Source: Chiloscyllium plagiosum
Taxonomy: Eukaryota
DNA: 64,000 bases
Direction of reading: 5' to 3'
Assembly (NCBI RefSeq): GCF_004010195.1
Contig: NC_057754.1
Coordinates: 8,113,010-8,177,009, forward strand
Part shown: piece after piece, positions 9,296 through 54,041 of the stretch
Layout of the letters: each line of letters begins with the position of its first letter
How positions within the stretch are numbered: the stretch's first letter is position 1
The notes under the pieces: model-generated
Seen by the model: the letters and a program-made list of their open reading frames with translations, nothing else
The model's database searches: none
Told to the model about the DNA's origin: nothing
Translations under genes and position numbers: made by a program

Positions 9296-9800
9296 TAGAG
9301 TGGTGCTGGAAAAGCACAGCAGGTCTAGCAGCATCTGAGGAACAGAAAAATCGACCTTTCAGGCAAAAGCCCTTCATTAGGCAGGGAGCTTTGGGGGTGG
9401 AGAGCTAAATGGGAGAGGGTGGGGCTGGGGGGACGGTTGCTGAGAGCGCAATAGGTGGATGGAGGTGGGGGTGAAGGTGATAGAATGGAGGGGAGGGTGG
9501 AGCAGATAGGTGGGAAGGGAGATAGTTAGGTCGTGAGGGCAGTGTTCAGCTGGAAGGTTGGGACTGGGGTAAGGTGGGGGGAGGCGAAATGAGGAAACTG
9601 GTGAAGTCCACATTGACGCCCTGAAGTTAGAGGGTCCCGAGGCGGAAGATGAGGCGTAGGACGGTGAGGGAGTGGCGATGGAGGAGGCCCAGGACCTGCA
9701 TGTCCTCAGCAGAGTGGGAGGGGGAGTTGAAATGTTCAGCCAGGGAGCGGTGGAGTTGATTGGTGCGGGTGTCCCGGAGATGTTCTCTGAAGCTTGTGAG
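9296..9800 (-). mobile_element. Penelope-like element 3' part (GIY-YIG remnant plus terminal repeat with decayed hammerhead motif)
   Basis: ORF 9627-9833(-) FREHLRDTRTNQ..AEHFNSPSHSAEDMQVLGL..RLIFRLGTL is homologous to 49583-49907; decayed HHR at 9351-9381. Confidence 0.85.
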
Positions 9801-10149
9801 TAATGCTTCCTGCCTCAGAGAGAGAAGATCCATGATCTGACCATAGACCTGGTTGACTCCTCTTTACCCTGTCCAAGAGACCCCTGCAGCTCTTCCGTTT
9901 TGGTCAGGCACGTGAACAAGGAACAGGAGTCAACCATTTGTCCCTGCGCCATCATTCAGTAAGATCATGGCTGGTCTGATTTTAACCTCAACTCTACATT
10001 TCTCCCTATTCCCTGATTATCTATCATCCCCTTGAGAATCTGTCTCCCTCTGGCTGAATAATGTTTAAAGGGACGACATCCTTTTTATTTTGAGGGAGGG
10101 AATTCCGAAGGTACTCAGCCCTGTGAGAGAAAACAGTGTGCCCTCATCA

Positions 10150-10390
10150 GCCACAGACAGCCTGATACAGCAACTGCTCTGCCCAGAACCGTAAGAGACT
10201 ACAGAGAGCTGTGAACGCAGCCCAGTCCATCCACTGACTCCATCGGCACTTCTTGCTGCCTGTCATTAAAGACCCCTCCCACTCCGATCATAAGCTTATC
10301 CAACCTCATCAGTCAGGCAGAAGATACAAAAGTTTAAACACATGAACCAACAGATTCAAGAACAGCTTCGTTCCCTGCTGTTATCAGACA
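10150..10390 (+). mobile_element. Rex1/Babar-like LINE 3' remnant
   Basis: Degenerate NCSAQ.RK.LQR.VN.AQSI..IKDPSH..SGRRY..FKNSF; homologous to the minus-strand remnant at 25330-26330. Confidence 0.65.
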
Positions 10391-10500
10391 GCACGGAAAC
10401 AGACCTTTCAGCCCAACTCCTCCACGCTGACAAGTTTCCTGAACACACTAGTCCCGTTTGCCTGCGTTTGGCCCATATCTCGCTGAACAATTCCATGTGG

Positions 10501-10690
10501 GTAAAAACAAGGACTGCAGATGCTGGAAACCAGAGTCGAGATTAGAGTGGTGCTGGAAAAGCACAGCAGTTCTGGCAGCATCCGAGGAGCAGGAAAATCG
10601 ACGTTTCAGGCAAAAGCCCTTCATCAGGAATAGAGGGCTTTTGCCCGAGACGTCGATTTTCCTGCTCCTCGGATGCTGCCTGAACTGCTG
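10501..10690. mobile_element. Short fold-back Penelope-derived element nested in a CR1 3' end
   Basis: 57-bp inverted repeat 10564-10620/10634-10690; flanking direct repeat gctgaac(aa/ct)ttccatgt at 10482 and 10687. Confidence 0.8.
10598..10630 (-). ncRNA. Minimal hammerhead ribozyme motif (PLE type)
   Basis: Minus strand CUGAUGA-A-GGGC(UUUU)GCCU-GAAAC-GUC. Confidence 0.65.
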
Positions 10691-11314
10691 AACCTTTCCA
10701 TGTACCTATCCAAATGTTTTTTGAAATGTTGGAATTTTACTAGCCTCTCCCATCTCCTATGCAGTTTGTTGCATACCCCGCACCACCCTGAGTGTGAAAA
10801 ATCTCAGGTCCCTTTTCAAGCTTTCCCCTCGAACCTTTCCCTGGTGTATTTGTGCCTTGTGAAGCACGCCTGGGCCCATTTTACAAAGGCATCATATAAA
10901 CGCAGTTTGTTGTCGCAGTGCTGGAGAGGCCAGCTGGTTGCGTGAGGCCACTCCCAACATGTCATCCTGCACCCCGTCTCTGCCTTTGCGACGTGAGGCT
11001 AAGGTTTCTGATGCTTCCTGACTCTTGTTGCCCTGAAGGCAACCTCGAGGAGAATTTTCAACACTCGATACGTGAACTGGGATTGATACCAATCTGGAAT
11101 GGCTGCTTCTGGACTCCGAGCTGCTGCGGAGCTCGGTGCCCTCTATCTGATGGTTGACAGTCACTTGCCATTTGGATGTGTAATGTTTGTTACAGCAAGC
11201 GAAGGACGAGCTACAGTTTGTTGACTGCGATATTTGTGCCTTTGGTCAAGCCACAGAATTCCAGTACAGCGATGTGAAGCTTTCAGATCCGAAGTCATTG
11301 CCACACCCCACATT

Positions 11315-12098
11315 AATTTGGGGAAAGCAAATTTTAGCAGGACTTATACATTAATGGTAAGGTCCTAGGGAGTGTTGCTGAACAAAGAGACCTTGGAGTG
11401 CAGGTTCATAGCTCCTGAAAGTGGAGTCGCAGGTAGATAGGATAGTGAAGAAGGCGTTTGGTATGCTTTCCTTTATTGGTCAGAGTATTGAGTACAGGAG
11501 TTGGGAGGTCATGTTGCGGCTGTACAGGACATTGATTAGGCCACTGTTGGAATATTGCGTGCAATTCAGGTCTCCTTCCTATCGGAAAGATGTTGTGAAA
11601 CTTGAAAGAGTTCAGAAATGATTTACAAGGATGTTGCCAGGGTTGGAGGGTTTGAGCTACAGGGAGAGGCTGAACAGGCTGGGGCTGTTTTCCCTGGAGC
11701 GTCGGAGGCTGAGGGGTGACCTTATAGAGGTTTATACTATCATGAGGGGCATGGATAGGGTAAATAGACAAAGTCTTTTCTCTGGGGTCGGGGAGTCCAG
11801 AACTAGAGGGCATAAGTTTAGGGTGAGAGGGGAAAGATATAAAAGAGACCTAAGGGGCAACTTTTTCTCTCAGAGAGTGGTGCTTGTATGGAATGAGCTG
11901 CCAGAGGAAGTGGTGGAGGCTGGTACAATTGTAACATTTAAAAGACATTTAGATGGGTAAATGAATAGGAAGGGTTTGGAGGGATATGGGCCGGGTGCTA
12001 GCAGGTGGGACTAGGTTGGGTTGGGATATCTGGGTCGGCATGGACGGGTTGGACCGAAGGGTCTGTTTCCGTGCTGTACATTTCTAAGACTCTAATGA
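11315..12098 (+). mobile_element. CR1/HER1 LINE 3' fragment (relatively young)
   Basis: ORFs 11421-11621 and 11631-11960 give the CR1 ORF2 C-terminus (LEYCVQF.SPSYRKDVVKLERVQK; RRRLRGDLIEVY; FFSQRVV.VWNELPEEVVEA). Confidence 0.95.
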
Positions 12099-12459
12099 CA
12101 ACCCAGACTGCGCTGGGTCTAAATAGGCAGCACAGTTGAGGTTTTAATGGCCAGATACTTAACACTTGTAATGTTACCATAACACTCACAGCCAGAGGAG
12201 CACTGTGTGTTATTTTACAGTGAAATAATAGATTGCTTTTGAAATTGCCGAGGTAAGAGAGTCGCCGTCGAAGCAATCATCAGGACTGATGGCAAATCTC
12301 AAGGGGAACAACAGTTTACACTGCATGGAATAAAAATGGTGCTGACTTGGTCCATCGGGGAAAGGTACAGCCTGTCAGGCCGCATCCGAGGAGCAGGAGA
12401 GTCGATGTTTCAAACTTCCTTCCTTGCTTCCAGCCAGCGTTAATGAGCTACGTTGTGAG

Positions 12460-13960: not shown

Positions 13961-14375
13961 CATGGCTGATCATCCAGTTTAGTCTCCTGCTTTCTCCCCC
14001 ATTAGCCTTCGATCCCCTTAGCCCCAGGATCTATATCTAACTCCTTCTTGAAAACATTCAGTGTTTAGGCCCCAACCCCTTTTTGTGACAGAGAATCCCA
14101 TAGGCTCCCCCATTCTCTGGGTGAAGATATTTCTCCTCATCTCAAACCGAAACGGCCCCCACCCCGTAATCCTCAGAGTGTGATCCCCCCCGGTTCAGGA
14201 TTCCCCAAGGAAGATCCTTCTGTGTTCATCCTGTCTAATCCTTTTAGAATTTGATAGATTTCGACAAGATTCCATCCCTATCTCATTCTTCTAACCTCCA
14301 ATGAATGTAAGTCCTAACTGAACCACCATAATTTTCTGATCATCCTTAGGCCAGCTTTTAATTTCCAGATTTATT

Positions 14376-14526
14376 GGATGTAGGTTGGCTCGCTGAGCTG
14401 GAAGGTTCATTTCCAGACGTTTCATTACCCTACTAGGTAACATCTTCAGTGGGCCTCAGGTGAAGCACTGCTGATAAGTCCTGCTTTCTGTTTATGTGTT
14501 TGGGTTTCTTTGGGTTGGTGATGTCA
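14376..14526 (-). mobile_element. Short Penelope-type terminal element (third family) with 13-bp TSD
   Basis: ttccagatttatt at 14363-14375 and 14527-14539; carries a hammerhead motif. Confidence 0.75.
14413..14452 (-). ncRNA. Minimal hammerhead ribozyme motif with long stem II
   Basis: Minus strand CCA-CUGAAGA-U-GUUACCU(AGUA)GGGUAAU-GAAAC-GUC-UGG; stem I CCA/UGG. Confidence 0.7.
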
Positions 14527-15301
14527 TTCCAGATTTATTATGTGAATTCCAGTTCCACCCTCTGCCCAGGTGAGATTTAAATCCACGTGCCCAAAACATT
14601 TGCCTCACTTGCCAAATTACTAGTCTAGTGATGCAGCCACTTCACCGGCACCTCCCCAGCAATCACCTGCTGCCACCTTGTCGGCTGTGAAATACTTTGG
14701 GTCTTCTGAGGCGCTACAGAAATGCAAGTGTGTCTTTTAAACGAATGAGGTACGGCCATGTCTGGAGAGTACCTTTGGCCCCTGGTGTTCATGTGACCAC
14801 TGTACGTTGACATTGTGTTCCAAAGCGATAGGCTCCATCTCTTCTCAAATCGGTTAAACTTGTACCGGGGCGGGGGGATCGGTTTAAATTGTGCAGACAC
14901 ATTAACTGTAACAGTCAGACTCGTATCATGAGAAGAGAAGCTGGTCTGTCATCAGAAATTTGATCCTGATGATAATTACATGTTCTGCCATCAGACAAGC
15001 TCCTCCAGTGAACTTGCTGTGACTCACCCCATGCTGGTTCCCTTTTTATCATGTTGGCGCCACAAGATAATGTTGCATTAATTGCAACTTTCGTCCCCTT
15101 TAAGGCGAGCCGTGTCAGGAATGTCAATCGAGGCACACCAGAGCCCAGTCCTCTGTGTGTTACCGCTGGAGCTATCAAAAGGAACAAACCGTCTCTCGAC
15201 TTCAGTTGCAAAGTTCTCGACTGCCTAGTTAGGGTAATGTGTGACTTGGAGAGATCCAGTCACACGTGGATGGGGGCGAGGGGGAGTCAGAGGCCCATGT
15301 A

Positions 15302-15720: not shown

Positions 15721-15726
15721 GGGTAT

Positions 15727-15727
15727 C

Positions 15728-15795
<68 letters not shown>

Positions 15796-15817
15796 TGTGT
15801 GTGTGTGTGTGTGTGTG
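15727..15817. repeat. (GT)n microsatellite
   Basis: About 45 GT units. Confidence 0.99.
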
Positions 15818-15849
15818 CCCAATTTTAATTCTGCCACCATTCTCATGGA

Positions 15850-16570
15850 GGTCGACAGCACAGAAAAGGTTCCTTATGTCCATGGAGTCTGCACCAGTCA
15901 AAACCAACCACCTCACTGTTCTAATCCTGTTTCCCAACACTTAGTCTATAGTGGTGGCATCACCAACTCACATAGAGTCATAGAGATGTACAGCACAGAG
16001 ACAGACCCTTCGGTCCAACCCGTCCATGCCGACCAGATATCCCAACCCAACCTAGTCCCACCTGCTCTAAATACTTCATCAATGTTATGAAGGTTTCTGC
16101 CTCCACCATCTTTATAGGCAGAAATTCTCACCACCCTCCGAGTGAAATAAAAATTCCTCACATCCCCTCTAAACATCCTGCCTTAAATCTAGGCCTCTGC
16201 TCATTGACGCCTCCATCAGTGGAAACTCTTTCTTCCTGTCTCCCCTGTCTATGCCCCTCATAATTTTATACATCTCAGTCGGGGCCCCCTCTCAATCTCC
16301 TCTGCTCTTAAGGACAACAACACCTGAAGAAGGGCTCATGCCCGAAACGTCGATTCTCCTGCTCCCTGGATGCTGCCTGACCTGCTGCGCTTTTCCAGCA
16401 ACACATTTTTTAGCTCTGATCTCCAGCACCTGCAGTCCTCACTTTCTCCAACAACACCAGTCTATCCAATCTCTCTCCGTCACTGAAACTCTCCAGTCTA
16501 GACAACATCCCAGTAAAACTCCCTCTCTGGTGCAATCACATAATGTGGATTGCAGAACTGACCACAACAC
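15850..16570 (-). mobile_element. CR1 3' fragment with a nested younger CR1 tail (15968-16065) and a nested PLE end (16324-16448)
   Basis: FRGDVRNFYFTRRVVRI remnant; nested boundaries visible. Confidence 0.75.
16324..16351 (+). ncRNA. Minimal hammerhead ribozyme motif (PLE type), intact core
   Basis: CUGAAGA-A-GGGC(UCAU)GCCC-GAAAC-GUC; host element 16324-16448 flanked by caacaacacc at 16315 and 16449. Confidence 0.72.
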
Positions 16571-16884
16571 TCTGACTTTGTGGCCATTCCTTCAGTTATT
16601 CGGGGCCCGTTCTGCCAACCGCCTGCCTCTAGCCTGGCCTGATTGGCTGAGTGGGCTGTCAGTCAGGATAACTGGGACCAATCTGGCATGGAGACCACCT
16701 TGATTGACAGGGTAACTGGCCAGTGATTGTTGACGTGGGCGGCAGAAGCCTTGGACTGAGTGTCCCCCCCCCTACCTCCTCCTCAACACTTTGCCTCTGG
16801 ATGGGAATTGGGACCCACGTGAGGACTGTTCAGTTGGAGCTTCCTTGACTTGATGGGCTATAGAGTGACTCCCACCCCTCAGGA

Positions 16885-16990
16885 CGTTCCTGAGGGACGG
16901 TCACTCAACCCGAAACGTTAACTCTGATTTCTCTCCGCAGATGCTGCCAGACCTACTGGGCTTTACCATCAAATTCTGTCTTTGTTTCTA
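16885..16990 (+). mobile_element. PLE terminal fragment, second family, decayed hammerhead motif
   Basis: ctgagggacggtcactcaacccgaaacgttaactctgatttctctccgcagatgctgccagacct; related pieces at 18860-18948, 19733-19820, 20280-20405, 48935-49135, 50776-50905. Confidence 0.65.
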
Positions 16991-18765: not shown

Positions 18766-19169
18766 TTTGCAAAATGGGTGAAAAGGGCCCTGGGGGTGAA
18801 AGCTGGCTTGATGTTCTGAAGGGCCTATGCTGGGGAAGTGGTAGCTGGCAAAATCTTGTGCAAATCCAAAACAAAAGCAGAGAATACCGGAGCAACTCAG
18901 CAGGCTCTGGCAGCAGCGTCTGGGGAGAGAGAAACAGAGGCACGTTTCAATGCTTTTTTTTCCCTCCTGCATTCTCTGCCTTTTATTTCTCGTCTTGTTG
19001 ACGTCTCGTTTCCTCTGGTCTCAATACAGATGACCCATTGCTTCTCTTTCATGCCCTAATTGACAGCTATTTTCCATCTTTCTCTCCTTCGCCAACACCG
19101 AAAACCCTTTGTCAGTTACACAGGGGTCCACCTCGGTCAAAAGTACGAAAACAAATTACCAACAAATTT

Positions 19170-19720
19170 CAGGCCGCACTTGGAGTATTGTGTTCAGTTT
19201 TGGTCACCTTGCGGTAGGAAGGATGTTATTAAACTGGAACGAGTGCGGAGGAAATTTACAAGGTACTCCAAGGTCTGAATGAGAGGGAGAGGTTGGACAA
19301 GCGAGGACTATTTTCTTTAGAGCGTAGGAGACTGAAGGGGGACCTTATAGAGGTGTATAAGATCATGAGAGGCATGGACAGGGTATGTGCACTCAGTCAT
19401 TTCCCCAGGGTCGGGGAATCGAGGACTAGAGGGCATCAGTTTAAGGTGAGAGGGGAAAGAATAAAAGGGAACCTGAGGGGCAACTTTTTTACCCAGAGGG
19501 GGGTACGCAGATGGAATGAGCTGGCAGTGGAAGTGGTTGAGGCGGGTACATTAACAACATTTAAAAGGCATCGGGACAAATATGTGGCTAGGAAAGGGTT
19601 AGAAGGATATGGGCCAAGTGCAGGGAAATAGGGTTAGTGTGGATGGACATTTTGGTCGGCATGGACCAGTTTGGACCGAGGGGCCTGTCTCCATGCTGTA
19701 GGACTCTCAGTCCGTGACTC
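19170..19720 (+). mobile_element. CR1 LINE 3' fragment
   Basis: [13 protein letters not shown] and ORF 19293-19631 GLFSLERRRLKGDLIEVYKIMRG. Confidence 0.92.
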
Positions 19721-20454
19721 TAAGTGTCATAACAGACCCGAGACGTTAAGTCCATTCCTCTCTCCACAGATATTGCCAGATTTGCTGAGTTTCTGCACCA
19801 TTCTCTGCGTTTGTTATAGATCTGGTTACAGACTCTTCCCTCCCACCCAACAATTTTCTCCCCCTCTCTGCACTTTCAAAACCCCTCGTACTGTCAAGCC
19901 TTGTTCAGCCCTGGGTTTTGACACGTGCAAGATGAAGGGCTGGCTGTTCATTCCTGAAGATTGATTGAATTAGTGATCTGAGGCTTAATGTTACCCTTCC
20001 TTGTTTCCCATTAGGTATGAGCTTTTAACAGACTTGTTAACTCTGTCACTGGGATAAGAACTTCTCACGTGAGTGCTTCATTATTACGACAACCGAGGTT
20101 CAAGTTAAGGCTAGTGGCTGTGGGCAGCGGTGCCAATCTGTTATTTTTACTCAGCGAACCTCAGACGATGGGTTTGCTAATTCTGAGTCACAGTACGTGG
20201 CTGAGCAGAGAAGGTTAAGCAACAGTTACAGTACTGCGAGACTAGAGCAGCTCAAGTTCAGGCAGCTAGGCCAAAGTACAGCAGATGCTGGCAATCTGAA
20301 ATAAAAACAGACTGCGTCAGAGAGTGAGAAACTCAGTGAGTCTGCCAGCATCCGTGGAAAGGCAAACAGAGTTCACGTTTCAAGCCTGCTATGATTCTTC
20401 TTCACAATTTATTTCCCTGCTGCGCACTGAACAAGTCATCTTGGGCTCAAAACA

Positions 20455-22122: not shown

Positions 22123-23815
22123 AGTCATAGTCATAGAGTTCTACGGCACGGAAACAGACCAACTCGTCCATGCCGACCAGATATCCAAAATTAATCTGGC
22201 CCCATTTGCCAGCACCCGGCCCATATCCTTCTGAACCCTTCCTGTTCATATACCCATCCTTTTAAATGTTGCAATTGTGCCAGCCTCCGCCACTTCCTCC
22301 GGCAGCTTACTCCACACACACACCACACTCTGAGTGAAAAGGTTGCCCCTTCTGTCCCTTTTATTATCTTTCCTCTCTCACCTTAAGCCCACACGCTCTA
22401 GTCTTGCACCTCGGAGAAAAACCTTGATTATTCACCCTATCCGTGCCGCCCCTGATTATAGAAACCTCTGTAAGGTCACCCCTCAGCCTCTGACTTTCCA
22501 GCTGTAGGTGTACAGGGTGCTGCGGAGGCCACATCTGGGTTACTGGGGACAGTTTTGGTCTCCTTCCTTGAGAAGGGGTATACTGGCACTGGAGGGGGTG
22601 CAGAGGTTGATTCCGAAGTTGGGGGGAGTTGGCTTGAGAGGAGACATTGTGCCGCCTGGGACTGTGCTCGCTAGAATGGGCATGGAATGCGCTGCCTGTG
22701 GGAGTGGTAGAGTCAGAATCTTTGGTGACCTTTAAGCGGCAATTGGATAGGTACATGGATGGGTGCTTAAGCTAGGACAAATGTTCGGCACAACATCGTG
22801 GGCCGAAGGGCCTGTTCTGTGCTGTATTGTTCTATGTTCTATGTTCTAGAATCTGGGGAGGGGGTCTTATGGAAACGTATAAAGTTATGAAAGGAATAGA
22901 TAAGATGGAAGCAGCGAGGTTGCCTCCCCACTGAAACTAGAACTTGGGGGGCATTGTATCACAATTCGGGGGAGCAGACTTAGAACTGAGTTGAGGAGGA
23001 ACTTTTTCCACCCAAAGAGTTGTGAATTTGTGGAATTCCCTGCTCACTGACTGTTTTTAAGGCAAAGATAGACTTTTGAACAGTAAAGGAATGAAAGGTT
23101 GTGGCGAGTGGAGCTGAGTCCATGAGAAGGTCAGCCATGATCTTATTGAATGGCTGAGCAGGGTCGAAGGGCCAGACGGCCCACTCCTGCTCCTCGTTCT
23201 TAACTTTTTACGAAAATAGCCCCCAGCCGAATCAGCCTGTCCCTCGAGCTCAAACCCTCCAACCCTGGGAACATCCTTGTTAATCTTTTCTGAACCCTTT
23301 CGTGTTTCACAACATCCTCCCGATAGGAGGGAGACCAGAACTGCACACAATATTCCAACAGTGGCCTAACCAATGTCCTGTGACATGACCTCCCAACTCC
23401 AACAGTGAGATGGTGAGGACTGCAGATGCTGGAGATCAGAGTCGAGAGTGTGGTGGTGGAAAAGCCCGGCCAGTCAGGCAGCATCCAAGGGGCAGGAGAG
23501 TCGATGTTTCCGGATGAATCTTGATGAAGAGCTTATGCTCGAAACATTGATTCTCCGACTCGTCAGCTGCTGCCTGACCGGCTGGGCTTTTCCAACACCA
23601 CACTGTCAACTCCCAACTCCTACACGCAATGCACTGCACACCAAACGGCTGCTTCTTCACCACCCTGTCAGCTTCACCCTCCATCAGGAAAGGATGAACC
23701 TGCACCCCAAAGTCTCTTAGTTCGGCAACACACCCCAGGACCTTACCATTAAGTGTATAAGTCCTGCCCTGATTTGCCTTCCCAGAATGCAACACCTCGC
23801 ATTTACCTAAACTAA
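22123..23815. mobile_element. Cluster of nested CR1 fragments in both orientations
   Basis: CR1(-) 22123-22500, older CR1(+) 22500-23200 with nested tail 22670-22850, CR1(-) 23215-23815. Confidence 0.8.
23401..23609. mobile_element. Short fold-back Penelope-derived element with 11-bp TSD
   Basis: ctcccaactcc at 23390-23400 and 23610-23620; inverted arms; HHR-like motif 23521-23548(+). Confidence 0.85.
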
Positions 23816-27055: not shown

Positions 27056-28290
27056 TAGTCTTGTAGTGTCTCAGGATTGGGACCAGTCTTGTAGTGTCTC
27101 TGGGCTGGCACCTGTCTTGTAGTGTCTCAGGTCTGGCACCAGTCTTGTAGTGTCTCAGGGTTGGCACCAGTCTTGTAGTGTCTCAGGATTGGGACCAGTC
27201 TTGTAGTGTCTCAGGGTTGGCACCAGTCTTGTAGTGTCTCAGGGCTGGGACCAGTCTTGTAGTGTCTCAGGGCTGGGACCAGTCTTGTAGTGTCTCAGGT
27301 CTGGCACCAGTCTTGTAGTGTCTCAGGATTGGGACCAGTCTTGTAGTGTCTCAGGTTTGGCACCAGTCTTGTAGTGTCTCTGGGCTGGGGCCAGTCTTGT
27401 AGTGTCTCAGGGCTGGGACCAGTCTTGTAGTGTCTCTGGGCTGGGACCAGTCTTGAAGTGTCTCTGGGCTGGGAACAGTCTTGTAGTGTCTCAGGGCTGG
27501 GACCAGTCTTGAGTGTCTCAGGGCTGGGAACAGTCTTGTAGTGTCTCAGGGTTGGCACCAGTCTTGTAGTGTCTCAGGGTTGGGACCAGTCTTGTAGTTT
27601 CTCAGGGTTGGCACCAGTCTTGTAGTGTCTCAGGGTTGGCACCAGTTTTGTAGTGTCTCTGGGCTGGGACCAGTCTTGTAGTGTCTCAGGGCTGGGACCA
27701 GTTTTGAAGTGTCTCAGGGCTGGGACCAGTCTTGTAGTGTCTCAGGGTTGGCACCAGTCTTGTAGTTTCTCAGGGTTGGCACCAGTCTTGTAGTGTCTCA
27801 GGGTTGGGACCAGTCTTGTAGTGTCTCAGGGCTGGGACCAGTCTTGTAGTTTCTCAGGGTTGGCACCAGTCTTGTAGTGTCTCAGGTTTGGCACCAGTCT
27901 TGTAGTGTCTCTGGGCTGGGACCAGTCTTGTAGTGTCTCAGGGCTGGCACCTGTCTTGTAATGTCTCAGGGCTGGGACCAGTCTTGTAGTGTCTCAGGGT
28001 TGGGACCTGTCTTGTAGTGTCTCAGGGCTGGGACCAGTCTTGTAATGTCTCAGGGTTGGGACCAGTCTTGTAGTTTCTCAGGGCTGGCACCAGTCTTGTA
28101 GTGTCTCAGGGCTGGCACCAGTCTTGTGTCTCAGGGCTAGGACCAGTCTTGTAGTGTCTCAGGGCTGGCACCAGTCTTGTAGTGTCTCAGAGCTGGCACC
28201 AGTCTTGTGTCTCCGGGCTAGGACCAGTCTTGTAGTGTCTCAGGGCTGGCACCAGTCTTTAGTGTCTCGGGCCTGGCAACAATCTTGTAG
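27056..28290. repeat. 28-bp minisatellite, about 44 copies
   Basis: Unit gtcttgtagtgtctcagggctgggacca; degenerate units at both edges. Confidence 0.98.
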
Positions 28291-28464
28291 ATTTTCAGAG
28301 CAGGTGCCAGTCTCGTCTTTACTCAGGGCTGGTCTTCCAGTTTCTCTCAGAGCTGACACCAATATTGTGATATGTTAGTCCAGTGTTCATTTGAGTGTAA
28401 AACTAGCACCAGCCACTGACCAGAGAATGCATTCTGGTGCATTACGCTTTGTGATCAGCACTAG

Positions 28465-31739: not shown

Positions 31740-33160
31740 TCTTTCCTTCACTTGTGGGACGTGTGTGTAACTAGCTGGGCCCAACGTTTATTGCCCGTCC
31801 ATTCTTGCCCCTTGAGAAGGTGGTGGGTGAGCTGCCGTCTTGAGCCGCTGCAGTCCATGTGCTGTAGGTAAATCCACAATGCCCTTAGGGAGGGAATTCT
31901 CAGATTTTAACCCGGCGACAGAAAAGGAACGGCCAATTTATTTCCAAATCGGGATGGTGAGTGGCTTTGAGGGGGTCTTACTGGGGTGGGGGGGGGGGGG
32001 TTAGTGTTCCCATGTATCTGCTGCCCATGTCCTTCTGGATGGAAGTTGGCATCAGTTTGGAAGGTGCTGTCTGAATGTGTTTGGTGAATTTCTGCAGTGC
32101 ATCTTGTAGATGGTACACACTGCTGCTACTGAGCGTCGGGAGTGGGGGGAGTGGGTGTGGTGCCAACCAAGCGGGGGCTGCTTTGTCCTGGATGGTGTTG
32201 AGCTTCTTCATTGTTGTTGGAGCTGCCCCCATCCAGGGGCAAGTGGGGAGTATTCCCTCCCCTTCCTGACTTATGCCTTGTAGAAGGCGGGACAGCTTTG
32301 GGGAGTCAGGAGGTGAGATACTGTATTCCCAGCCTCTGGCCTGCTATTTTAGCCACTGTATGTACATGGTGAGTCCAGTTGAAGTTCTAGTCAATGATAA
32401 GCCCCCAGGGTATTGATAGACTCTCCAATAAAACACAATCTAATTGTTGCCCCTTAACATTTGGTGGTGTTCCCATCACTGAACCCCCCATTCATGATAA
32501 TTGGGGGAGGGGTCGGTAGGAGGTAAGTCACATTTGACGAGTAAGTGAACAAGACAAGCCATATAAACACATGTGGCTGCAAGAGCTGGTTGGGAGCGAG
32601 GAATACTACAGCAAGTAGCTTACCTCCTGACTCCCCAAAACCTGTCCACCATCTACAAGGCACAAGTCAGGAATGCTCCCCACTTGCCCCTGGATGGGTG
32701 CAACTCCGACAACGTCAAGAAGGTCCACGCCATCCAGGAGAAAGCAGCCCCCGCTTGATTGGCACAATACCCACTCCCTCCACCACCGACACCCAGTGGC
32801 AGCAGTGTGTACCATCGACAAACGCACTGCAGGAATTCCCCAAAGTTATTTAGACAGCACCTTTCAAACCCACAACAACATCCCCCCATAATGATAAGGG
32901 CAGAAGATACACGGGGATACTGCCCCCTGCAAGTTTCCCTCCAAGCCACTCCCCATCCCGACTTGGAAACATATTGGCCCTTCCTTCAGTATCGCTGGGT
33001 CAAAATCCTGGAATTCCCTCCCTCAGAGCGTTGATAGGTGTCTCTACTGTTCATGGACTGTAACGGTTCAAGAAGGCAATTCATCCCCATCTTCTCAAGG
33101 GGCAACTAGGGATGGGCTCAGACAGTGAGACCTGCATCTGAGTGAATTTTCAAAAAAGCA
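31740..33160. mobile_element. Two LINE-B 3' fragments in inverted, head-to-head arrangement
   Basis: Minus copy 31740-32420 and plus copy about 32440-33160 cover the same LINE segment (LLTPQNLSTIYKAQVR). Confidence 0.8.
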
Positions 33161-35105: not shown

Positions 35106-35496
35106 GATGTTTCTGGTGACTGGGGAGGCGAAAACCAGGGGCCCACACAGTCTAAGGATGTACATTAGGCCATTTGAGGAGAAATGTCTTCACCCAGGGA
35201 GTGGGGTGCCTGTGGAATTCTCTGCCACAGAAAGCAGTTGAATGATTTTCAAGAGTGAATTAGATAGAGATTTAGTTCTTAAGTCTAAAAGGAAAAAATC
35301 AGAAAGCGGGGTCCGAGTTGAAACCCAAGGCCCTGTTTCAAAGTTCGCCCAGCTTTCTGCCTCCAATCCCTGAACATCAATCCTAAAGGGCGTTATTGCC
35401 ATTTTGTGGGACCTTGCTTAAATTGATCCATCCTGCGTGCAGGCAGTTGTAGAGTGGTGTGGTTTGGTCGGAATAAAATTGAAAGAGAATATAAAA

Positions 35497-35880
35497 TTTA
35501 GCACGGCCAATCCACCCTAACCTGCACATCCCTGGGCATTATGGGACAACTTAGCACGCCCAATCCACTCTAACCTGCACATCCCTGGACACTGTGGGAC
35601 AATTTAGCGCGGCCAATCCACTCTAACCTGCACATCCCTGGACACTGTGGGACAATTTAGCACAGCCAATCCACCCTAACCTGCACATCCCTGGACACTG
35701 TGGGACAATTTAGCACGGCCAATCCATTCTAACCTGCACATCTTTGCACTGTGGGAGGGAACTCATGCAGACGCGGGGAGAATGTGCAAAGTCCACACAG
35801 ACCGTCGCCTGAAGGTGGGATCGAACCCGGGTCCCTGGTGCTGTGAGGCAGCAATGCTAACCACTGAGCCACCATGCCAT
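35497..35880 (-). mobile_element. HE1-like V-SINE with about 5 tandem 53-bp internal units
   Basis: Repeats of tttagcacggccaatccaccctaacctgcacatccctggacactgtgggacaa, then V-domain and tRNA head. Confidence 0.92.
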
Positions 35881-37463: not shown

Positions 37464-37682
37464 AAGGAGAAAGTGGGGACTGCAAATACTGGAGATCAGA
37501 GTTGAGAGTCTGATGCTGGAAAAGCACAGCAGGTCAGGCAGCATCCGAGGGAGCAGGAGAATCGACGTTTCGGGCATAAGCCCTTCTTCAGGAATGGAGT
37601 CATTCCACTTGAAACGTCGAATCTCCTGCTCCTGGGATGCTGCCTGACCTGCTGTGCTTTTCCAGCACCACACTGTCAACGT
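37464..37682. mobile_element. Short fold-back Penelope-derived element with near-perfect 11-bp TSD
   Basis: About 70-bp inverted arms 37501-37571/37611-37680; acctc(t/a)cagtc at 37453 and 37683. Confidence 0.85.
37564..37591 (-). ncRNA. Minimal hammerhead ribozyme motif (PLE type), intact core
   Basis: Minus strand CUGAAGA-A-GGGC(UUAU)GCCC-GAAAC-GUC. Confidence 0.72.
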
Positions 37683-45290: not shown

Positions 45291-46121
45291 TAGTGCCCAG
45301 GGATGTGCAGGTTAGGGTGGATTGGCCGTGCTAAATTGCCCCATAGTGCCCAGGGATGTGCAGGTTAGGGTGGATTGGCCGTGCTAAATTGTCCCATAGT
45401 GCCCAGGGATGTGCAAGTTAGGGTGGATTGGCCGTGCTAAATTGTCCCATAGTGTCCAGGGATGTGTACGTTAGGGTGGAATGGCCATGCTAAATTGTCC
45501 CCGTAGTGCCCAGGGATGTGCAGGTTAGGGTGGATTGCCCGTGCTATATTGCCCCATAGTGCCCAGGGATGTGCAGGTTAGGGTGGATTGGCCGTGCTAA
45601 ATTGTCCCATAGTGTCCAGGGATGTGTACGTTAGGGTGGATTGGCCATGCTAAATTGTCCCATAGTGCCCAGGGATGTGCAAGTTAGAGTGTATTGGCCG
45701 TGCTAAATTGTCCCATAGTGCCCAGGGATGTGCAAGTTAGAGTGGATTGGCCGTGCTAAATTGCCCATAGTGCCCAGGGATGTGCAGGTTAGAGTGGATT
45801 GGCCGTGTTATATTGCCCCATAGTGCCCAGGGATGTGCAGGTTAGGGTGGATTGGCCGTGCTAAATTGTCCCATAGTGCCCAGGGATGTGCAGGTTAGGG
45901 TGGATTGGCCGTGCAAATTGTCCCATAGTGCCCAGGGATGTGCAGGTTAGGGTGGATTGGCCGTGCTATATTGCCCCATAGTGCCCAGGGATGTGCAGGT
46001 TAGGGTGGATTGCCCATGGGAAATACAGCGATAGGATAGTGGGGTGGGTCTGATTGGGGTGCTCATTAGAAGGTTGCTGCAGACTCTGAGCCAAATGGCC
46101 TGTTTCTCCACTGTAGATTTC
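45291..46121 (+). repeat. 53-bp tandem array (at least 13 units) inside an HE1-like SINE
   Basis: Unit tagtgcccagggatgtgcaggttagggtggattggccgtgctaaattgcccca, running into the normal SINE 3' end at about 46015-46121. Confidence 0.95.
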
Positions 46122-47300: not shown

Positions 47301-47304
47301 GCGA

Positions 47305-48250
47305 AGTAGAACTGCAGATGATGCAGATTAGAGTCAAGAGAGTGGTGCTGGAAAATCACAGCAGGTCAGGCAGCATCCGAGGAGCAGGAGAATCGACATT
47401 TCGGGCAAGCCTCAGGGTTGAAGAGGTAAATGGGAGGGAGTTGGGGGAAGGTAGCTGAGAGTGTGATAGGTGGATGGAGGTGTGGGGAAAGGTGATAGGT
47501 CAGAGGGGAGAGTGGAGGGGATAGGTGGGAAGGAAGATGGACAGGTAGGACAGGTCATGAGGGCAGTGCTGAGGTGGAGGGTTGAAACAGGGGNNNNNNN
47601 NNNNNNNNNNNNNNNNNNNNNNNNNNNNNNNNNNNNNNNNNNNNNNNNNNNNNNNNNNNNNNNNNNNNNNNNNNNNNNNNNNNNNNNNNNNNNNNNNNNN
47701 NNNNNNNNNNNNNNNNNNNNNNNNNNNNNTGGAAAACCACAGCAGGTCAGGCAGCATCCGAGGAGCAGGAGAATCGACATTTCGGGCAAGCCTCAGGGTT
47801 GAAGAGGTAAATGGGAGGGAGTTGGGGGAAGGTAGCTGAGAGTGTGATAGGTGGATGGAGGTGTGGGGAAAGGTGATAGGTCAGAGGGGAGAGTGGAGGG
47901 AATAGGTGGGAAGGAAGATGGACAGGTAGGACAGGTCATGAGGACAGTGCTGAGGTGGAGGGTTGAAACAGGGGTAAGGTGGGGGGGGGGGGAGGAGAAA
48001 CTGGGAAACTGGTGATATCCACATTAATGCCATGGGTTTGGAGGGTCCCAATGCAGAACATGAGGCGTTCTTCCTCCAGGCGTCGGGTGGTGATGGAGAA
48101 GGCCCAGGACCTGCATGTCCTGGGCAGAGTGGGAGCAGAAGTTGAAGTGTTCAGCCAGGGGGCGGTGGGGTTGGTTGGTGCGGGAGTCCTGGAGATGTCC
48201 TCTGAAGCGCTCTGCGAGTACGTTGTAGAAGAGACCGCACTGGGGAGACA
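47305..48250 (-). mobile_element. Penelope-like element 3' part, spanning the gap at 47594-47729
   Basis: Terminal repeat plus GIY-YIG remnant (reverse complement of rrLEEERL, DMQVLG, RFRGH), homologous to 49583-50240. Confidence 0.82.
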
Positions 48251-49574
48251 GGACGCCTACTTGCAGAGCGCTGGTGGGATTTAAACCTGAGTCCCCAAAG
48301 CGTTATCTGGGTCTCTGGATTAACAGTCCAGTGATAATACCACTCGGCCCATCGCCTGGGTGATGGAGTTAGCCCAGTCGCCTGGATTGCTGAATTTATG
48401 ATGCCACCTCAGACACGGACAGCCTACGCCCCACATAGAACTTCTTCCAACCCTCTCTCCCTTCATCTCACACCATCAGCATGTAGGAATATTGATCCGG
48501 ATTTCAGGAGAGAGGGGAAGTTGTCAGCCGTCAGAGGATCTGCAGTTGTAAAATAATTGCTAAAAGAAGTGGAAGGGAGCTGGGGGGATTGATGTTTCTC
48601 GAGCAAGTTATTGCCCCTGCCCGGGGGCATAATGAAAATTGGTTCAAGAATCCTTCTCATGGAGACGAAGAGAAATTCCCAAGGAAGACACAAGCTCAGG
48701 GGAAAAGATCAGAAAGCTCTTCCCAAGAACCGTGATATATTTCCAAGTCAGGATGGGGAGTGGCTCAGAGGGGAGCTTACAGGGGGGGATTGTGTTCCCA
48801 TGTATTGGAGCCCCTGTCCTTATGGTTAGCAGAGTTTGTGGGTATGTTTGTCGGACACAATTATTATTTTATTATTATCATCATAAGGCATGATTTAGCT
48901 CTGTAACATCGCTGGTCGGTAAATTGGCTTCCAAAATCAAAGCAGAACGCTGTGGGTGCTGGAAATTTCAAAGAGGCAGACAGGGTGTTGGAGCAACTCA
49001 GCAGGTCTAGCAGCATCTGCAGAGAGAGAAAAAAACAGCCAACGTCTCGAGAGTTTTTGAAAAGTCAGGCCAGGCTGGAAACGTTAACTCTGTTTCTCTC
49101 TCCACTGAGTATCTCCAGCATTCTCTGCTCTTTAATAACAAGGCTGAACGGAGGCCTCACGAAAGGCTGTTTGTCTTTGCAGTATCTTCACTGAAGCCAC
49201 GCCACCTTATTTGACCATCCTGAAATCCGGCTGTAACGCTTTAGCTCATATGCTGCTCGGTTTACATGCGGTTAAGTGTGAATAGAACATGGTAATCACC
49301 GCCACAGCCTGGCACCCGCTCCAGCTCCCCCTCCAGAAAGTAAGCATCCATCTCCGAAACGCCTCAGCCGCCATCCCAATCCCGCCAGGCACCACTCAGC
49401 CAGCCGATGAAACCTCCCGGCTGTTTCCGCCTCACTCCAGAAGAGGGTGAGACCGACACAGGAAGAGGAGGAAGGCCATTCAGCCTCTCGAGCCTGTTCC
49501 GCCATTCGGTGGGATCACGACCAGTCTCTGGCCTAACTCTATATACCTGCCTTTGACCTATATCCCAAGGCCCC

Positions 49575-50240
49575 AAAGGATCCTTCCACATCTGACAGGG
49601 ATTTTCCTGCACGTCTAAACACCTCATCGACTGTGTCCGTTGCTCTCAATGTGGTCTCCTCTACATTGAGGAGACAGGGCGCCAACTCGCAGAACGTTTC
49701 AGAAAACATGTCTGGGACACTTGCACCAAACAACCCCAATGCCCCGTGGCTGGCCACTTCGACTCTCCCTCCCACTCCGCCAAGGACACTCAAGTCCTGG
49801 GCCTCCTCCCCTGCCAAATCCTAGCCACCTGACGCCTGGAGGAAGAACGCTTAATCTTTCATCTTGGGACCCTCCAGCCACACGGCATCAATGTCAATTT
49901 CACCAGGTCCCTCATCTCCCCTCACCCCACCTCACCCCAGATCCAGCCCTCCAGCTCTTCAACTGTCCTACCTGTCCTTCTTCCTTCCCACCTATCTGCT
50001 CCGACCTATCACCATCGTCCCCTACCTGCACCTACTATCATATTCCTAGCTACCTTACCGCCAGCCCCACCCCACCCTCCTATTTATCTCTCTGCTCCTT
50101 TCCCCCGTCCCCACGTTCCTGATGAAGGGCTTATGTCCGAAACGTTGACTCTCCTGCTCCTCAGATGCTGCCTGACCTGATGTCCTTTTCCAGCGCCACA
50201 CGTCTCAACTCTGATCTCCAGCATCTGCAAGTCCTCACTG
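49575..50240 (+). mobile_element. Penelope-like element 3' part: GIY-YIG endonuclease pseudogene plus terminal repeat with hammerhead motif
   Basis: 49583-49907 translates FSCTSKHLIDCVRCSQCGLLYIEETGRQLAERFRKH..VAGHF..RLEEERLIFHLGTLQPHGIN, with stops. Confidence 0.92.
50119..50146 (+). ncRNA. Minimal hammerhead ribozyme motif (PLE type)
   Basis: CUGAUGA-A-GGGC(UUAU)GUCC-GAAAC-GUU, directly downstream of the GIY-YIG remnant on the same strand. Confidence 0.68.
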
Positions 50241-50775
50241 ACTCCATATTCCCTAATACCTCCGCTTAGCAAAAATAGATCTGTCGCAGGATTAAAATGA
50301 ACAAGTGATCCAGCATCCACTACCGTTGGTGGAAGAGACTTCCAACATCTCGCAGCCTTTGTGTGTCAGAGTGTTTCCCTGCATCTCTCCTGAATGCTCT
50401 GGCCCTAATTGTCCAACTCTGCTCCCTCGTTCAAGAATCCTCAGTCATTGGCAGTAGTTTATCTAGGCTGTCTTTTTCCTTTTAATATCTTGAAAGCTTC
50501 AAACAGATTACCCCTCAACCAGCACAATGCCAGAGAAAACACGCCTACGATTGTCAATCTCACTGAAGAGTAGGATTCTTAAGGGGTTTGACAGAGTAAA
50601 TGTTAAAGGTTGTTTCCCCTCTTGGGAAAGTCTAGGGCCAGCGGGCATCGCCTCACAATAAAGGGGTGCCAGTTTAGGACTGAGAGGGCGCTGAGTCTTT
50701 GGAACTCCCCAGCACACAGAGCTTTGGCAGGGTGTGCAGAGTTCCTTGTGTATATTTAAGGCTGAGATAGATTCT

Positions 50776-50905
50776 AAGGAAAGGTCACTCCACCCGCAAC
50801 ATTACCTTTGATTTCTCTCCACAGATGCTGGCAGGCCTGCTGAGCTTTTCCAGCAATTTCTGAGTATGATTCTGATGTACAGCGTCTGTAGTTCTTTCGG
50901 TTTTT
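50776..50905 (+). mobile_element. Second-family PLE terminal element with 11-bp TSD, nested in CR1
   Basis: agatagattct at 50765-50775 and 50906-50916. Confidence 0.75.
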
Positions 50906-51029
50906 AGATAGATTCTTGATCAGACTGGAAGGGAAAAGAGTTACTGGGAAAATGGACATGAGGAGTGTCAGGTCAGCCAGGATTCTATTTGAATATGGCA
51001 TATTCCTGTTCTCTTTACAGCCTCATCTG

Positions 51030-51595: not shown

Positions 51596-51721
51596 CCCCA
51601 AATCTCTCCTCTGTAACACCTATAGATATTGTAACCCTATATTGGTACAACCTGCAGGGCTGGGATATCCTTCCTAAGGTGTGGTGCTTAGGTCTGCTCA
51701 CAGCACTCCCAAGTGGGGGGA

Positions 51722-51865
51722 TGAGCTTAAAAATGTGTTGCTGGAAAAGCGCAGCAGGTCAGGCAGCATCAAAGGAACAGGAGAATCAACGTTTCGGGCA
51801 TAAGCGTTTCCAGCAACACATTTTTAAGCTCTGATCTCCAGCATCTGCAGTCCTCTCTTTCTCCA
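51722..51865. mobile_element. Short fold-back Penelope-derived element
   Basis: Perfect 25-bp inverted repeat 51723-51747/51807-51831; flanking ccaagtgg(g/a)ggga at 51709 and 51863. Confidence 0.82.
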
Positions 51866-52743
51866 AGTGGAGGGAACCTAACCAGGGTTTTGTGTCGCTG
51901 CAGTATAACATCTGCAACCTTACACCTCTGCATGGAAAGGGCAGCACATCCCATTCGCCTAACCAGCAGGAATTCGGCAAACTGCATCTCTGCACCAACA
52001 TGCCTGCTCCTTGCTATCCAAAGGCCACACCCTCCTGCCCGGGGAGGAACAGGATAGCATTGTTACTCCCCCACAGCGGGGCTCACCCACACCCCTCTGG
52101 TTATTGAAGAAAGCAAAATGTAGCGATGTACCGACGTTCACCTTGGAATAATATCAGTGGAATTCAGCAGCTCAATTTACGGCCAATTACAGAGTGATTT
52201 TCCTGAGCTTACTGGCTTGAAAATGTCAAGCATTTTGAGTGCTCTGGAAAGGCTGTAGGCTTGTAGGTTTTGGCAAGCCAGGATACACTGAGAACTGAGT
52301 AAATTATTAAAAACCACTTGGGGCAGCTTTAAGTATGCAAAGACTCAAATTGTTCTCAGGGTGATGTGGAGGCGGCACGAACCGATTGTTGTTTTCAGTT
52401 GAAGCGATGTTTGGGCCAGTCTTGCAGGCTGGTCTGTGGCGCACTCTCGATCTCAAAGAGCTGCCCACTTAGTCCCGCTGCCCTTGCCCCACAAGTCTTC
52501 CAAGAATTTGTTTCATGTTCACTTCCTTCGGGGCGCTTCGTAACAGCTCAGAGTCCAATGAGCTTACCTCATCTCTTGGGGAGTAGTCACAGGACTGAAG
52601 AGCATCGTTCGGCCCATCGTGTCTGTGCCAGCTGTCCGATGCAGCATGCCACCCAGTGCAACTGTCCCTGCTCTCTCCCCACGGCAATGCCCATTCTTCC
52701 CGTTCAAGTCCCGGTTGCCCCTTGAAAGGTTTGATTGAGCCTG

Positions 52744-53415
52744 ACACACACACACACACACACACAGTCTGTCTCTCTCTCCCCTCTCTCTCTCTCTCTC
52801 TCCCCCCACTCACTCACTCTCACTCTNNNNNNNNNNNNNNNNNNNNNNNNNNNNNNNNNNNNNNNNNNNNNNNNNNNNNNNNNNNNNNNNNNNNNNNNNN
52901 NNNNNNNNNNNNNNNNNNNNNNNNNNNNNNNNNNNNNNNNNNNNNNNNNNNNNNNNNNNNNNNNNNNNNNNNNNNNNNNNNNNNNNNNNNNNNNNNNNNN
53001 NNNNNNNNNNNNNNNNNNNNNNNNNNNNNNNNNNNNNNNNNNNNNNNNNNNNNNNNNNNNNNNNNNNNNNNNNNNNNNNNNNNNNNNNNNNNNNNNNNNN
53101 NNNNNNNNNNNNNNNNNNNNNNNNNNNNNNNNNNNNNNNNNNNNNNNNNNNNNNNNNNNNNNNNNNNNNNNNNNNNNNNNNNNNNNNNNNNNNNNNNNNN
53201 NNNNNNNNNNNNNNNNNNNNNNNNNNNNNNNNNNNNNNNNNNNNNNNNNNNNNNNNNNNNNNNNNNNNNNNNCTCTCTATTTCTCTCTCTCTCTCTCTCC
53301 CTCTCTTGTCTCTCTCTCTCTCCCCCTCTCTATCTCCCTCTCTATCTCTCTCTCCCTCTCTCTCTATTTCCGTCTCTCTCTCTCTGTCTCTCTCTCTCTT
53401 TCTGTCTCTCTCCAC
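52744..53415. repeat. (CA)n/(CT)n microsatellite spanning the gap at 52827-53272
   Basis: Direct reading. Confidence 0.95.
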
Positions 53416-53913
53416 CCCCAACCCCTCGCTGCGTAAAGAACTTTCTCCTCATTGCTTCCCCTGCCAACTGCCTTGCGTCTGCACATTCTCAATCCTTCCA
53501 TCAATGCAACTGGCTTCTCAGCATCTGCTGTGTCCAGGCCCGTCATGTTTCTGAGCTGCTCAACCCCCATCTCCTTCCAGGAGGAACATTGAGTCATAGA
53601 ATCCCTACAGTGTGGAAGCAAGCTGTTTTGCCCATCAAGTTTCCACTGACTCTTGTCGTATGAGGAATAGTTGAGGACTCTAGGTCTGTACTTGATGGGG
53701 TTTAGAAGAATCAGGGGGGTTCTGAAACTTATAGAATACCGAGAGCCTGAATAGAGTGGATGTGTAGAAGATGTCTCTCCTCATAGACTTAGAGCCGAGG
53801 GCACAGCCTCAGGGCGAAGGGACTGAGATGCGGAGGAATTTCTTCAGCCGGAGGGAGGACTGTGGGGGCCTCGTCATTACGCAACTTTAAGACAGAGATA
53901 GGCTCTTGATTGG

Positions 53914-54041
53914 GTGAAAGTGAGGACTGCAGATGCTGGAGATCAGAGTCGAGAGGGTGGCGCTGGAAAAGCACAGCAGGGTCAGGCAGCACCCGAGGAG
54001 CAGGAGAATCGACGTTTCGGGCAAAAGCCCTTCATCAGGAA
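53914..54041 (-). mobile_element. PLE terminal element nested in an older CR1 (about 53660-54165)
   Basis: Same terminal sequence as 50116-50240, reverse orientation. Confidence 0.85.
54011..54038 (-). ncRNA. Minimal hammerhead ribozyme motif (PLE type), intact core
   Basis: Minus strand CUGAUGA-A-GGGC(UUUU)GCCC-GAAAC-GUC. Confidence 0.75.

What the first reader, a model, noticed from the sequence alone, without database searches (positions are those of the whole stretch)
9351..54038. Dispersed family of minimal hammerhead ribozymes carried on Penelope-like element ends
Seen: the hammerhead core CUGANGA-N-stem II-GAAAC-GUH recurs at 10598(-), 14413(-), 16324(+), 37564(-), 50119(+) and 54011(-), with decayed copies at 9351, 16890, 20375, 23521, 47395 and 50775. 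At 50119 and 9351 it lies downstream of a GIY-YIG remnant on the same strand. Established: PLEs are known to carry minimal type I hammerheads whose helix III is a palindromic stub (here ACGU) thought to need dimerisation. Inference: three distinct HHR-bearing families at roughly one copy per 5 kb would make self-cleaving RNA motifs a bulk component of this genome, able to cut host pre-mRNA if two copies pair.
Basis: partly seen in the sequence, partly recalled or inferred. Interest (0 to 1): 0.72.

Follow-up and report, generated by a model that had tools for sequence, protein, structure and literature searches.

The report
Penelope retroelement stubs with hammerhead motifs
The window is peppered with short, dead end-pieces of Penelope-like jumping genes that carry a small hammerhead ribozyme motif, a kind of element described in 2014, and nothing here suggests that these copies cut host RNA.

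Summary
The motifs are real: 6 intact minimal type I hammerhead cores against 0.02 expected, and the 6 listed decayed copies. They lie in 23 fragments at 17 loci, all short 3' ends of Penelope-like elements (PLEs). Three sit behind a GIY-YIG remnant; the one searched matches RT+GIY-YIG proteins. Target-site duplications, head-to-head fold-backs and an optional tail match published PLE anatomy. Families A and B are related; C is one unrelated copy. Host-RNA cutting is not supported. Helix I is 2-3 bp, and the double-hammerhead fold is 9-17 kcal/mol worse than rival dimers. Intact same-family, same-strand copies are 16-34 kb apart. Cores decay at the background rate (3.2% vs 3.2%). One RNA run shows both strands read across the cut site alike, with no piled ends (weak test). 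The one oddity: 10 of 11 short arms begin at or inside the hammerhead, upstream of its cut site. The scan has noted this family many times on other pieces of this genome (99 notes match 'hammerhead'). Verdict: new member of a known kind.

The parts
49569..49907 (+). GIY-YIG endonuclease remnant of a 5'-truncated PLE, two in-frame TGA stops, CCHH residues kept
   Evidence: best E 3e-29, 50% identity; long hits carry a C-terminal GIY-YIG, most also RVT_1
49908..50239 (+). pyrimidine-rich 3' UTR, family A hammerhead (50119-50146, GUU, predicted cut 50146/50147) and downstream end with tail
9297..9800 (-). family A unit: GIY-YIG remnant, 3' UTR, decayed hammerhead (9380-9353), short end; 9-10 nt TSD
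47730..48219 (-). third family A unit with GIY-YIG remnant; hammerhead core deleted; cut by an N gap
47304..47593 (-). near-identical repeat of the end of the 47730-48219 unit across a 136-N gap (probable assembly duplicate); carries the tail
10498..10700 (.). family A head-to-head fold-back: long arm (-) with intact core 10627-10600 and tail, short arm (+) from 10634; 8-nt flanking match
37466..37680 (.). family A fold-back: long arm (-) with intact core 37591-37564 and tail, short arm (+) from 37611; 11-nt TSD
23413..23620 (.). family A fold-back: (+) arm with decayed core 23521-23548, (-) arm starting inside helix II and carrying the tail; 16-nt TSD with 2 mismatches
51725..51864 (.). family A fold-back without a complete core; 13-nt TSD
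16324..16449 (+). family A solo insertion starting at the hammerhead core (intact core 16324-16351), with tail; TSD of about 10 nt
53913..54041 (-). family A solo insertion starting 3 nt before the core (intact core 54038-54011), with tail; degenerate TSD
12359..12411 (-). family A stub starting at GAAAC, no CUGANGA
14360..14545 (-). family C single copy (outer limits approximate): intact core 14449-14416, 7-bp helix II, 3-bp helix I; no GIY-YIG remnant seen upstream
16880..16985 (+). family B copy, decayed core 16890-16919, small inverted duplication at the 5' end
50772..50890 (+). family B copy, decayed core 50774-50803; 12-13 nt TSD
20280..20408 (-). family B copy, decayed core 20405-20374
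48935..49135 (.). family B fold-back, both arms decayed
19715..19830 (+). family B stub, old
18808..18973 (-). family B stub starting at GAAAC (limits from the covariance-model hit)

Best explanation
These are dead-on-arrival 3' ends of endonuclease-bearing Penelope-like retroelements in a cartilaginous-fish-like genome. Family A is probably of the Neptune/Nematis type. Shown: the GIY-YIG remnant, 3' UTR, hammerhead, and ~75-125 nt downstream form one unit; units carry target-site duplications; many are head-to-head fold-backs with a tail on one arm only. Inferred, by analogy with the anole PLE: the element's RT-endonuclease cuts the target and starts reverse transcription at one of two sites ~80-125 nt downstream of the hammerhead (tail or no tail). 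It usually stops after ~100-130 nt, at or just before the hammerhead. The second arm arises by snap-back or by priming from the other cut strand, joined through microhomology. Because the hammerhead lies near where copying starts, nearly every stub inherits all or part of it, which explains the density. The motif was kept by selection in the active master elements, probably as a protein-assisted or tandem-dimer ribozyme for processing element RNA. The dispersed copies are passengers that decay neutrally and are essentially inactive in host transcripts.
For: GIY-YIG identity: 2013 proteins at E<=1e-3; 10 long hits plus the top hit scanned, 11 of 11 match GIY-YIG and 7 of 11 also RVT_1. TSD-like matches of 9 nt or more at 6 of 15 units vs 144 of about 1900 random pairs, p about 5e-4. 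Five fold-backs; in 4 of 4 family A fold-backs one arm has the tail and the other lacks it, as described for PLEs (PMC3846280, PMC8557442). Selection on masters: changes shared between copies hit 0 of 107 core cells vs 46 of 752 other cells; C-G/U-A exchanges in helices I and II between A and B. Neutral decay of copies: private changes 3 of 94 core vs 21 of 664 other non-CpG cells. Poor fold. RNA: both strands similar, depth ratio upstream/downstream of the cut site 0.33 vs 0.30, no piled ends.
Against: No RT or full element lies in the window, so family membership rests on the endonuclease remnant and anatomy. Covariation is weak statistically (48 of 500 shuffles reach the score; 17 of 500 reach the both-sides count; 8 related sequences). 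The mutation test has few cells, and it left out the core deletion of the 47789 copy. Plain random 5' truncation does not explain the clustering of 5' ends. ViennaRNA ignores hammerhead tertiary contacts and proteins. The RNA test is one poly(A) single-cell sample with unknown strand convention; one strand has about 24% fewer reads on the segment just downstream of the cut site (707 vs 933), and the second run laid no reads. Family C has no linked coding remnant, so its PLE origin is by likeness only.
Confidence: 0.86

Rival explanations
1. The ~130-nt stubs are not truncations of long element RNA but full copies of a dedicated short RNA, a non-autonomous SINE-like PLE derivative that starts a few nt before the hammerhead (transcription start or processing site) and is mobilised by the PLE protein.
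For: 10 of 11 short family A arms start between -8 and +21 of C3, none between -9 and about -420; p about 4e-9 under a constant-hazard truncation model (arms of a fold-back are not independent). The main 5' border in DNA contigs is 3 nt before C3, with unrelated flanks (1231 and 1104 contigs, agreement 0.34). Solo TSD-bounded units start at -1 and -3.
Against: Starts are spread over 30 nt, not at one base. Three of 14 family A fragments run on into the GIY-YIG region without a break. RNA reads run on into unlike sequence in 99% of cases and show no piled starts. An RT stop or snap-back at the small hairpin just upstream of the core plus helix II would give the same pattern. The 50116 border is partly inflated because the copy used has a divergent 3' UTR.
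Confidence: 0.3
2. One reading: dispersed intact copies pair in cis or in trans, with or without PLE protein, and cut host pre-mRNAs at GUH to a biologically meaningful degree.
For: Six intact cores in 62 kb; family copies are present in poly(A) RNA on both strands, embedded in other sequence (2942 of 12,955,460 records); the ACGU stub is self-complementary; one of nine frog dimer elements cleaved strongly in vitro (bioRxiv 10.64898/2026.07.22.740005).
Against: Helix I of 1-3 bp; double-hammerhead fold disfavoured in 7 of 7 pairs; copies far apart or locked in fold-backs; neutral decay; no strand-specific loss of reads across the cut site; no host gene identified; low in vitro activity and no RNA-seq ends at the site in published cases (PMC4209133, PMC11167929).
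Confidence: 0.06
3. Hammerhead cleavage of element RNA does shape the inserts: a subset of fold-back short arms are run-off copies of the 3' cleavage product.
For: Among the best-supported opposite-strand joints in DNA contigs are 50116/50117 to 50150/50152, 3-5 nt past the predicted cut at 50146/50147 (14 and 11 contigs in the two runs).
Against: 0 of 11 short arms in the window start at +29. The joint position is blurred by two mismatches of the copy used, and a 2-nt microhomology explains it as well. 519 joints were not shown.
Confidence: 0.15

Closest known systems
Minimal type I hammerheads (min-HHR) in pLTRs of metazoan Penelope-like elements (Cervera & De la Pena 2014, PMC4209133)
   Same: CUGANGA-H, extra nucleotide before helix II, G10.1-C11.1, palindromic 15.2-16.2 with no helix III loop; mostly solo motifs from truncated PLEs; opposite-strand pairs close together; several families per genome.
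   Different: Helix I in families A/B is only about 2 bp (mostly 3-6 bp in the part of their table I saw; 2 bp in some Drosophila, Culex and Oikopleura rows). Helix II of A is 4 bp. Density is far higher than the 4,000 and 9,000 per genome reported for coelacanth and Xenopus. No cartilaginous fish appears in the part of their alignment I read (supplement file 2, part 2 of 3).
Insertion units of EN+ PLEs: pLTR, adjacent inverted 5'-truncated copy, optional 30-40 bp tail, 8-10 bp TSD (Arkhipova et al. 2013, PMC3846280; Craig et al. 2021, PMC8557442)
   Same: Head-to-head inverted arms, tail on one arm only, TSD around the whole unit, C-terminal GIY-YIG with CCHH residues.
   Different: Units here are mostly reduced to the last 75-130 nt, and their 5' ends cluster at the hammerhead; I did not see that clustering in the passages read.
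Poseidon element of the green anole, PAc (Frangieh et al. 2024, PMC11167929)
   Same: Hammerhead a little over 100 nt upstream of the element's end; two ends that define a tail.
   Different: PAc is Poseidon clade, active and tested (protein-assisted cleavage, not needed for insertion in vitro). Family A relatives carry the linker Zn-finger-like motif of Neptune/Nematis; nothing was tested here in vitro.
Non-LTR retrozymes (bioRxiv 10.64898/2026.07.22.740005)
   Same: Non-coding, PLE-pLTR-derived, type I hammerhead.
   Different: Retrozymes are defined as head-to-tail tandem arrays with a hammerhead in each unit; no tandem array here contains a hammerhead.

Membership tests
min-HHR of PLEs | Conserved core CUGANGA...GAAA-N-N-U-H | tested here: met
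   6 strict matches vs 0.023 expected
min-HHR of PLEs | Helix II with G10.1-C11.1 and one extra nucleotide after A9 | tested here: met
   4 bp in A, 7 bp in C; closing pair G-C, or G-U at 10627 and 14449
min-HHR of PLEs | Palindromic 15.1-16.1 stub instead of helix III | tested here: met
   ACGU in 6 of 6 intact copies
min-HHR of PLEs | Helix I closing the motif | tested here: inconclusive
   2 bp (A), 1 bp (16324), 3 bp (C); pair probability 0.12 or less, but a C-G/U-A exchange between A and B
min-HHR of PLEs | Location in the terminal repeat downstream of the PLE ORF, same strand | tested here: met
   3 family A units with GIY-YIG remnant upstream; not shown for B or C
min-HHR of PLEs | Self-cleavage 3' of NUH as dimer or with protein | not testable with these tools
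   needs in vitro assay; RNA reads showed no piled ends (weak test)
EN+ Penelope-like element | C-terminal GIY-YIG endonuclease with CCHH motif | tested here: met
   the remnant alone did not reach a Pfam GIY-YIG hit
EN+ Penelope-like element | Telomerase-like RT in the same ORF | tested here: inconclusive
   absent from the window (truncated); RVT_1 upstream of the domain in 7 of 11 homologues scanned
EN+ Penelope-like element | Inverted truncated copy, optional tail, TSD | tested here: met
Neptune/Nematis clades | Zn-finger-like Cys motif in the RT-EN linker | tested here: inconclusive
   present in 4 of the 5 top homologues aligned; the window remnant is cut just downstream of it; no tree built
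Non-LTR retrozymes | Head-to-tail tandem units each with a hammerhead | tested here: not met
   no tandem array overlaps a hammerhead
Rfam hammerhead families | Match to a covariance model | tested here: not met
   no hammerhead family among 11 hits up to E=10

The most novel reading that the evidence does not exclude
Of the order of 10^5 dispersed hammerhead-bearing stubs are latent, protein-gated ribozymes: when an active PLE is expressed (for example in germline), its protein binds the conserved downstream stem of sense-oriented intact copies and licenses cleavage of the host transcripts that contain them, making PLE expression a genome-wide RNA-cutting switch.
Probability: 0.06. Interest if true: 0.75.

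Novelty: new member of a known kind. Interest (0 to 1): 0.2.

Why it matters
As found, it extends PLE minimal hammerheads to a cartilaginous-fish-like genome at very high density and gives a clean natural sample of PLE insertion products. The role of PLE hammerheads is an open question (PMC8557442, PMC11167929). This family offers a direct genome-wide test: copies begin upstream of the cut site, so the copied template was mostly uncut, and their 5' ends cluster at the motif. If dispersed copies did cut host RNA it would be a new layer of transcript turnover, but the evidence here points against it.

Tried and rejected
No whole genome is held, so no genome-wide alignment, intron-orientation test or full-length element search was possible. 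Rfam: no hammerhead hit. Pfam on the remnant alone: no GIY-YIG hit. Word-based homologue search for longer proteins: 13 candidates, none significant. Host gene search: 0 Pfam hits in 337 of 344 stop-free frames of 45 aa or more outside repeats (the 7 left out overlap the LINE RT remnant at 1-1370); short exons could be missed. No tRNA gene. The look-up of sequencing runs: no RNA holder listed. Run X22 laid 0 reads, so it is no test. A first count suggested that cores are more conserved than the rest of the repeat (3 of 107 vs 72 of 766, p=0.025); separating private from shared changes and removing CpG sites removed the effect for private changes. An apparent 6-bp helix I at 49075 was rejected: its 5' strand belongs to the inverted arm. 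Whole-copy folding is no better than shuffles (z -0.8, 0.7, -1.8, 1.5). Retrozyme reading rejected (no tandem hammerhead arrays). Lunse et al. (PMC5785218) is not held; I saw only its title and a review's summary. Literature searches found no paper describing shark PLE hammerheads; the library lacks most subscription papers, and Repbase/Dfam could not be searched. The bioRxiv preprint includes one chondrichthyan genome whose supplementary tables are closed, and one supplement of PMC4209133 was not searchable; both may already cover this family.
Full report
Observation. The six listed decayed copies are present, each with a core defect. BLAST and a covariance model built from 8 copies extend the list to 23 fragments: 15 of family A, 7 of family B and 1 of family C, at 17 loci. 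The 47304-47593 fragment is a probable assembly duplicate of 47789 across an N gap. A and B share the region downstream of the hammerhead, so they are related lineages; C has no relative in the window. The intervals sum to 4052 bp, 6.6% of non-N bases. Rfam finds no hammerhead family.

What carries the motif. At 50119, 9380 and 47789 the motif follows a pyrimidine-rich stretch and a broken reading frame on the same strand. Read with X at its two stops, the 49569-49907 frame hits 2013 proteins (best E 3e-29). Of 11 hits scanned, all match GIY-YIG and 7 also match RVT_1 upstream of it. The Atlas places the stop-free part with GIY-YIG clusters at 0.96 (family on 13-23% of members). The best hit is a skate record, which with the repeat landscape suggests a cartilaginous fish (inference). 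Four of five top homologues carry a Cys linker motif just upstream of the matched part, the mark of Neptune/Nematis PLEs (PMC8557442, passages). The window remnant stops short of it, so the clade is not settled.

Insertion anatomy. Five loci are head-to-head fold-backs. In the 4 family A fold-backs one arm ends at +125 to +128 from C3 and the other at +75 to +101, giving a tail on one side only. Flanking direct matches of 9 nt or more occur at 6 of 15 units, against 144 of about 1900 random pairs (p about 5e-4). This is the published PLE unit: inverted truncated copy, optional tail, TSD (PMC3846280 and PMC8557442, passages). In the anole PLE the tail reflects two reverse-transcription start sites downstream of the hammerhead (PMC11167929, parts 1-2 of 4 read).

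Abundance. DNA contigs of organisms A and B laid on 49150-51000 at 80% likeness number 84,621 and 76,669. Summed depth is 4.1 million on 50142-50203 against about 7 on unique flanks, and 0.04-0.42 million on the GIY-YIG bins. The tool warns that this is no copy number; it points to an order of 10^5 copies, in line with the window's density. An organism B contig joins the element's end to the same right flank (50213-50601, 18 differences), so this insertion predates the A/B split.

Was the motif selected? Between A and B, helices I and II show C-G/U-A exchanges, but the statistics are weak (48 of 500 shuffles reach the covariation score). Among 13 family A fragments, changes shared by several copies fall on 0 of 107 core cells and 46 of 752 other cells. 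Private changes fall on 3 of 94 core and 21 of 664 other non-CpG cells, 3.2% each. I dropped the duplicate and the 51804 arm, and counted 47789 only downstream of its core deletion. This fits selection on active masters and neutral decay after insertion; numbers are small.

Can the copies cut? Helix I is 2 bp in four A copies, 1 bp at 16324 and 3 bp in C, with pair probability 0.12 or less, and 0.002 or less in native context. The double-hammerhead fold is 9-17 kcal/mol above the best dimer fold and above two monomers in 7 of 7 pairs; in family A a longer imperfect palindrome around the cut site offers a competing register. These energies ignore tertiary contacts and proteins. Intact same-strand copies are 3.8 kb (A with C, no helix I formed), 16, 23 and 34 kb apart, and two lie in fold-backs of about -130 to -140 kcal/mol. 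Published min-HHRs show no monomer activity and low dimer activity (PMC4209133, parts 1-2 of 4 and supplement file 2 part 2 read). The anole HHR needs protein, is dispensable for insertion in vitro, and leaves no RNA-seq ends (PMC11167929). One of nine frog dimers did cleave strongly (bioRxiv 10.64898/2026.07.22.740005, parts 1 and 3 of 5 and passages).

RNA. In run X21 (poly(A), single cell) 2942 of 12,955,460 records lie on the stretch; only 4 are 99% alike or better, 99% run on into unlike sequence, and the unique bins 49150-49459 and 50452-50575 have no reads. So family copies elsewhere are carried in other transcripts, and this locus was not seen expressed. Depth is 234/275 (two orientations) on the bin upstream of the cut and 708/933 on the bin holding it and its downstream side; the ratios 0.33 and 0.30 are alike, and no place has piled starts or ends. 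Bulk cleavage of the sense strand should break this symmetry. Against this: the 708/933 difference could be a 24% loss if the lower one is sense, the library is fragmented, it is one sample, and X22 laid nothing. No host exon was detected.

The oddity. Ten of 11 short family A arms start between -8 and +21 of C3, one at +67, none at the cut site (+29), and none between -9 and about -420 (p about 4e-9 under constant hazard, arms not independent). The main 5' border in contigs is at -3. Copies therefore came mostly from uncut RNA, and something at the front of the hammerhead ends them: a transcription start, or a reverse-transcriptase stop with snap-back at the small hairpin there. Some contig joints lie 3-5 nt past the cut site, so a minor cleavage-derived class is not excluded. 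I noted this clustering before reading the scan's notes; several of them report the same on other pieces, which are unchecked AI notes, not independent support.

Verdict. Observation confirmed; element class correctly named; host-cutting inference unsupported. A new member of a known kind, already noted many times in this genome by the scan. No paper on shark PLE hammerheads turned up, but repeat libraries and closed supplements were out of reach. Interest 0.2.

Noticed in passing
window 216-974 (-): LINE-type reverse transcriptase remnant (Pfam RVT_1, E 1e-16); similar fragments recur through the window, and self-matching repeats cover at least 24.6 kb.
   Followed up: partly
window 47304-47593 and 47730-47990: Near-identical sequence on both sides of a 136-N gap; probably an unmerged assembly overlap rather than a tandem PLE copy.
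   Followed up: partly
family A/B ends, e.g. window 53911-54000 (-): A 9-bp long-range stem downstream of the hammerhead is kept in 93% of cells across A and B, with one-sided changes only; a candidate binding site for the PLE protein.
   Followed up: partly
window 35495-35756, 45291-46012, 55999-56236, 58143-58491: Four separate arrays of the same 53-bp unit, 4.6-13.6 copies each; they look like locally amplified pieces of a SINE-like repeat (inference).
   Followed up: no
window 27057-28332 and 62988-63973: Minisatellites: 28-bp unit x 46 and 70-bp unit x 14; a related unit occurs at 2706-2810.
   Followed up: no
window 32212-32714: Two oppositely oriented copies of a repeat form a ~500-bp inverted structure that gives a spurious plant miRNA Rfam match far below its gathering score.
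   Followed up: no
loose end at 50109: 123 RNA reads share one upstream flank (agreement 0.93): a single expressed locus elsewhere carries a family A copy with the core region; a candidate for an end-mapping test.
   Followed up: no
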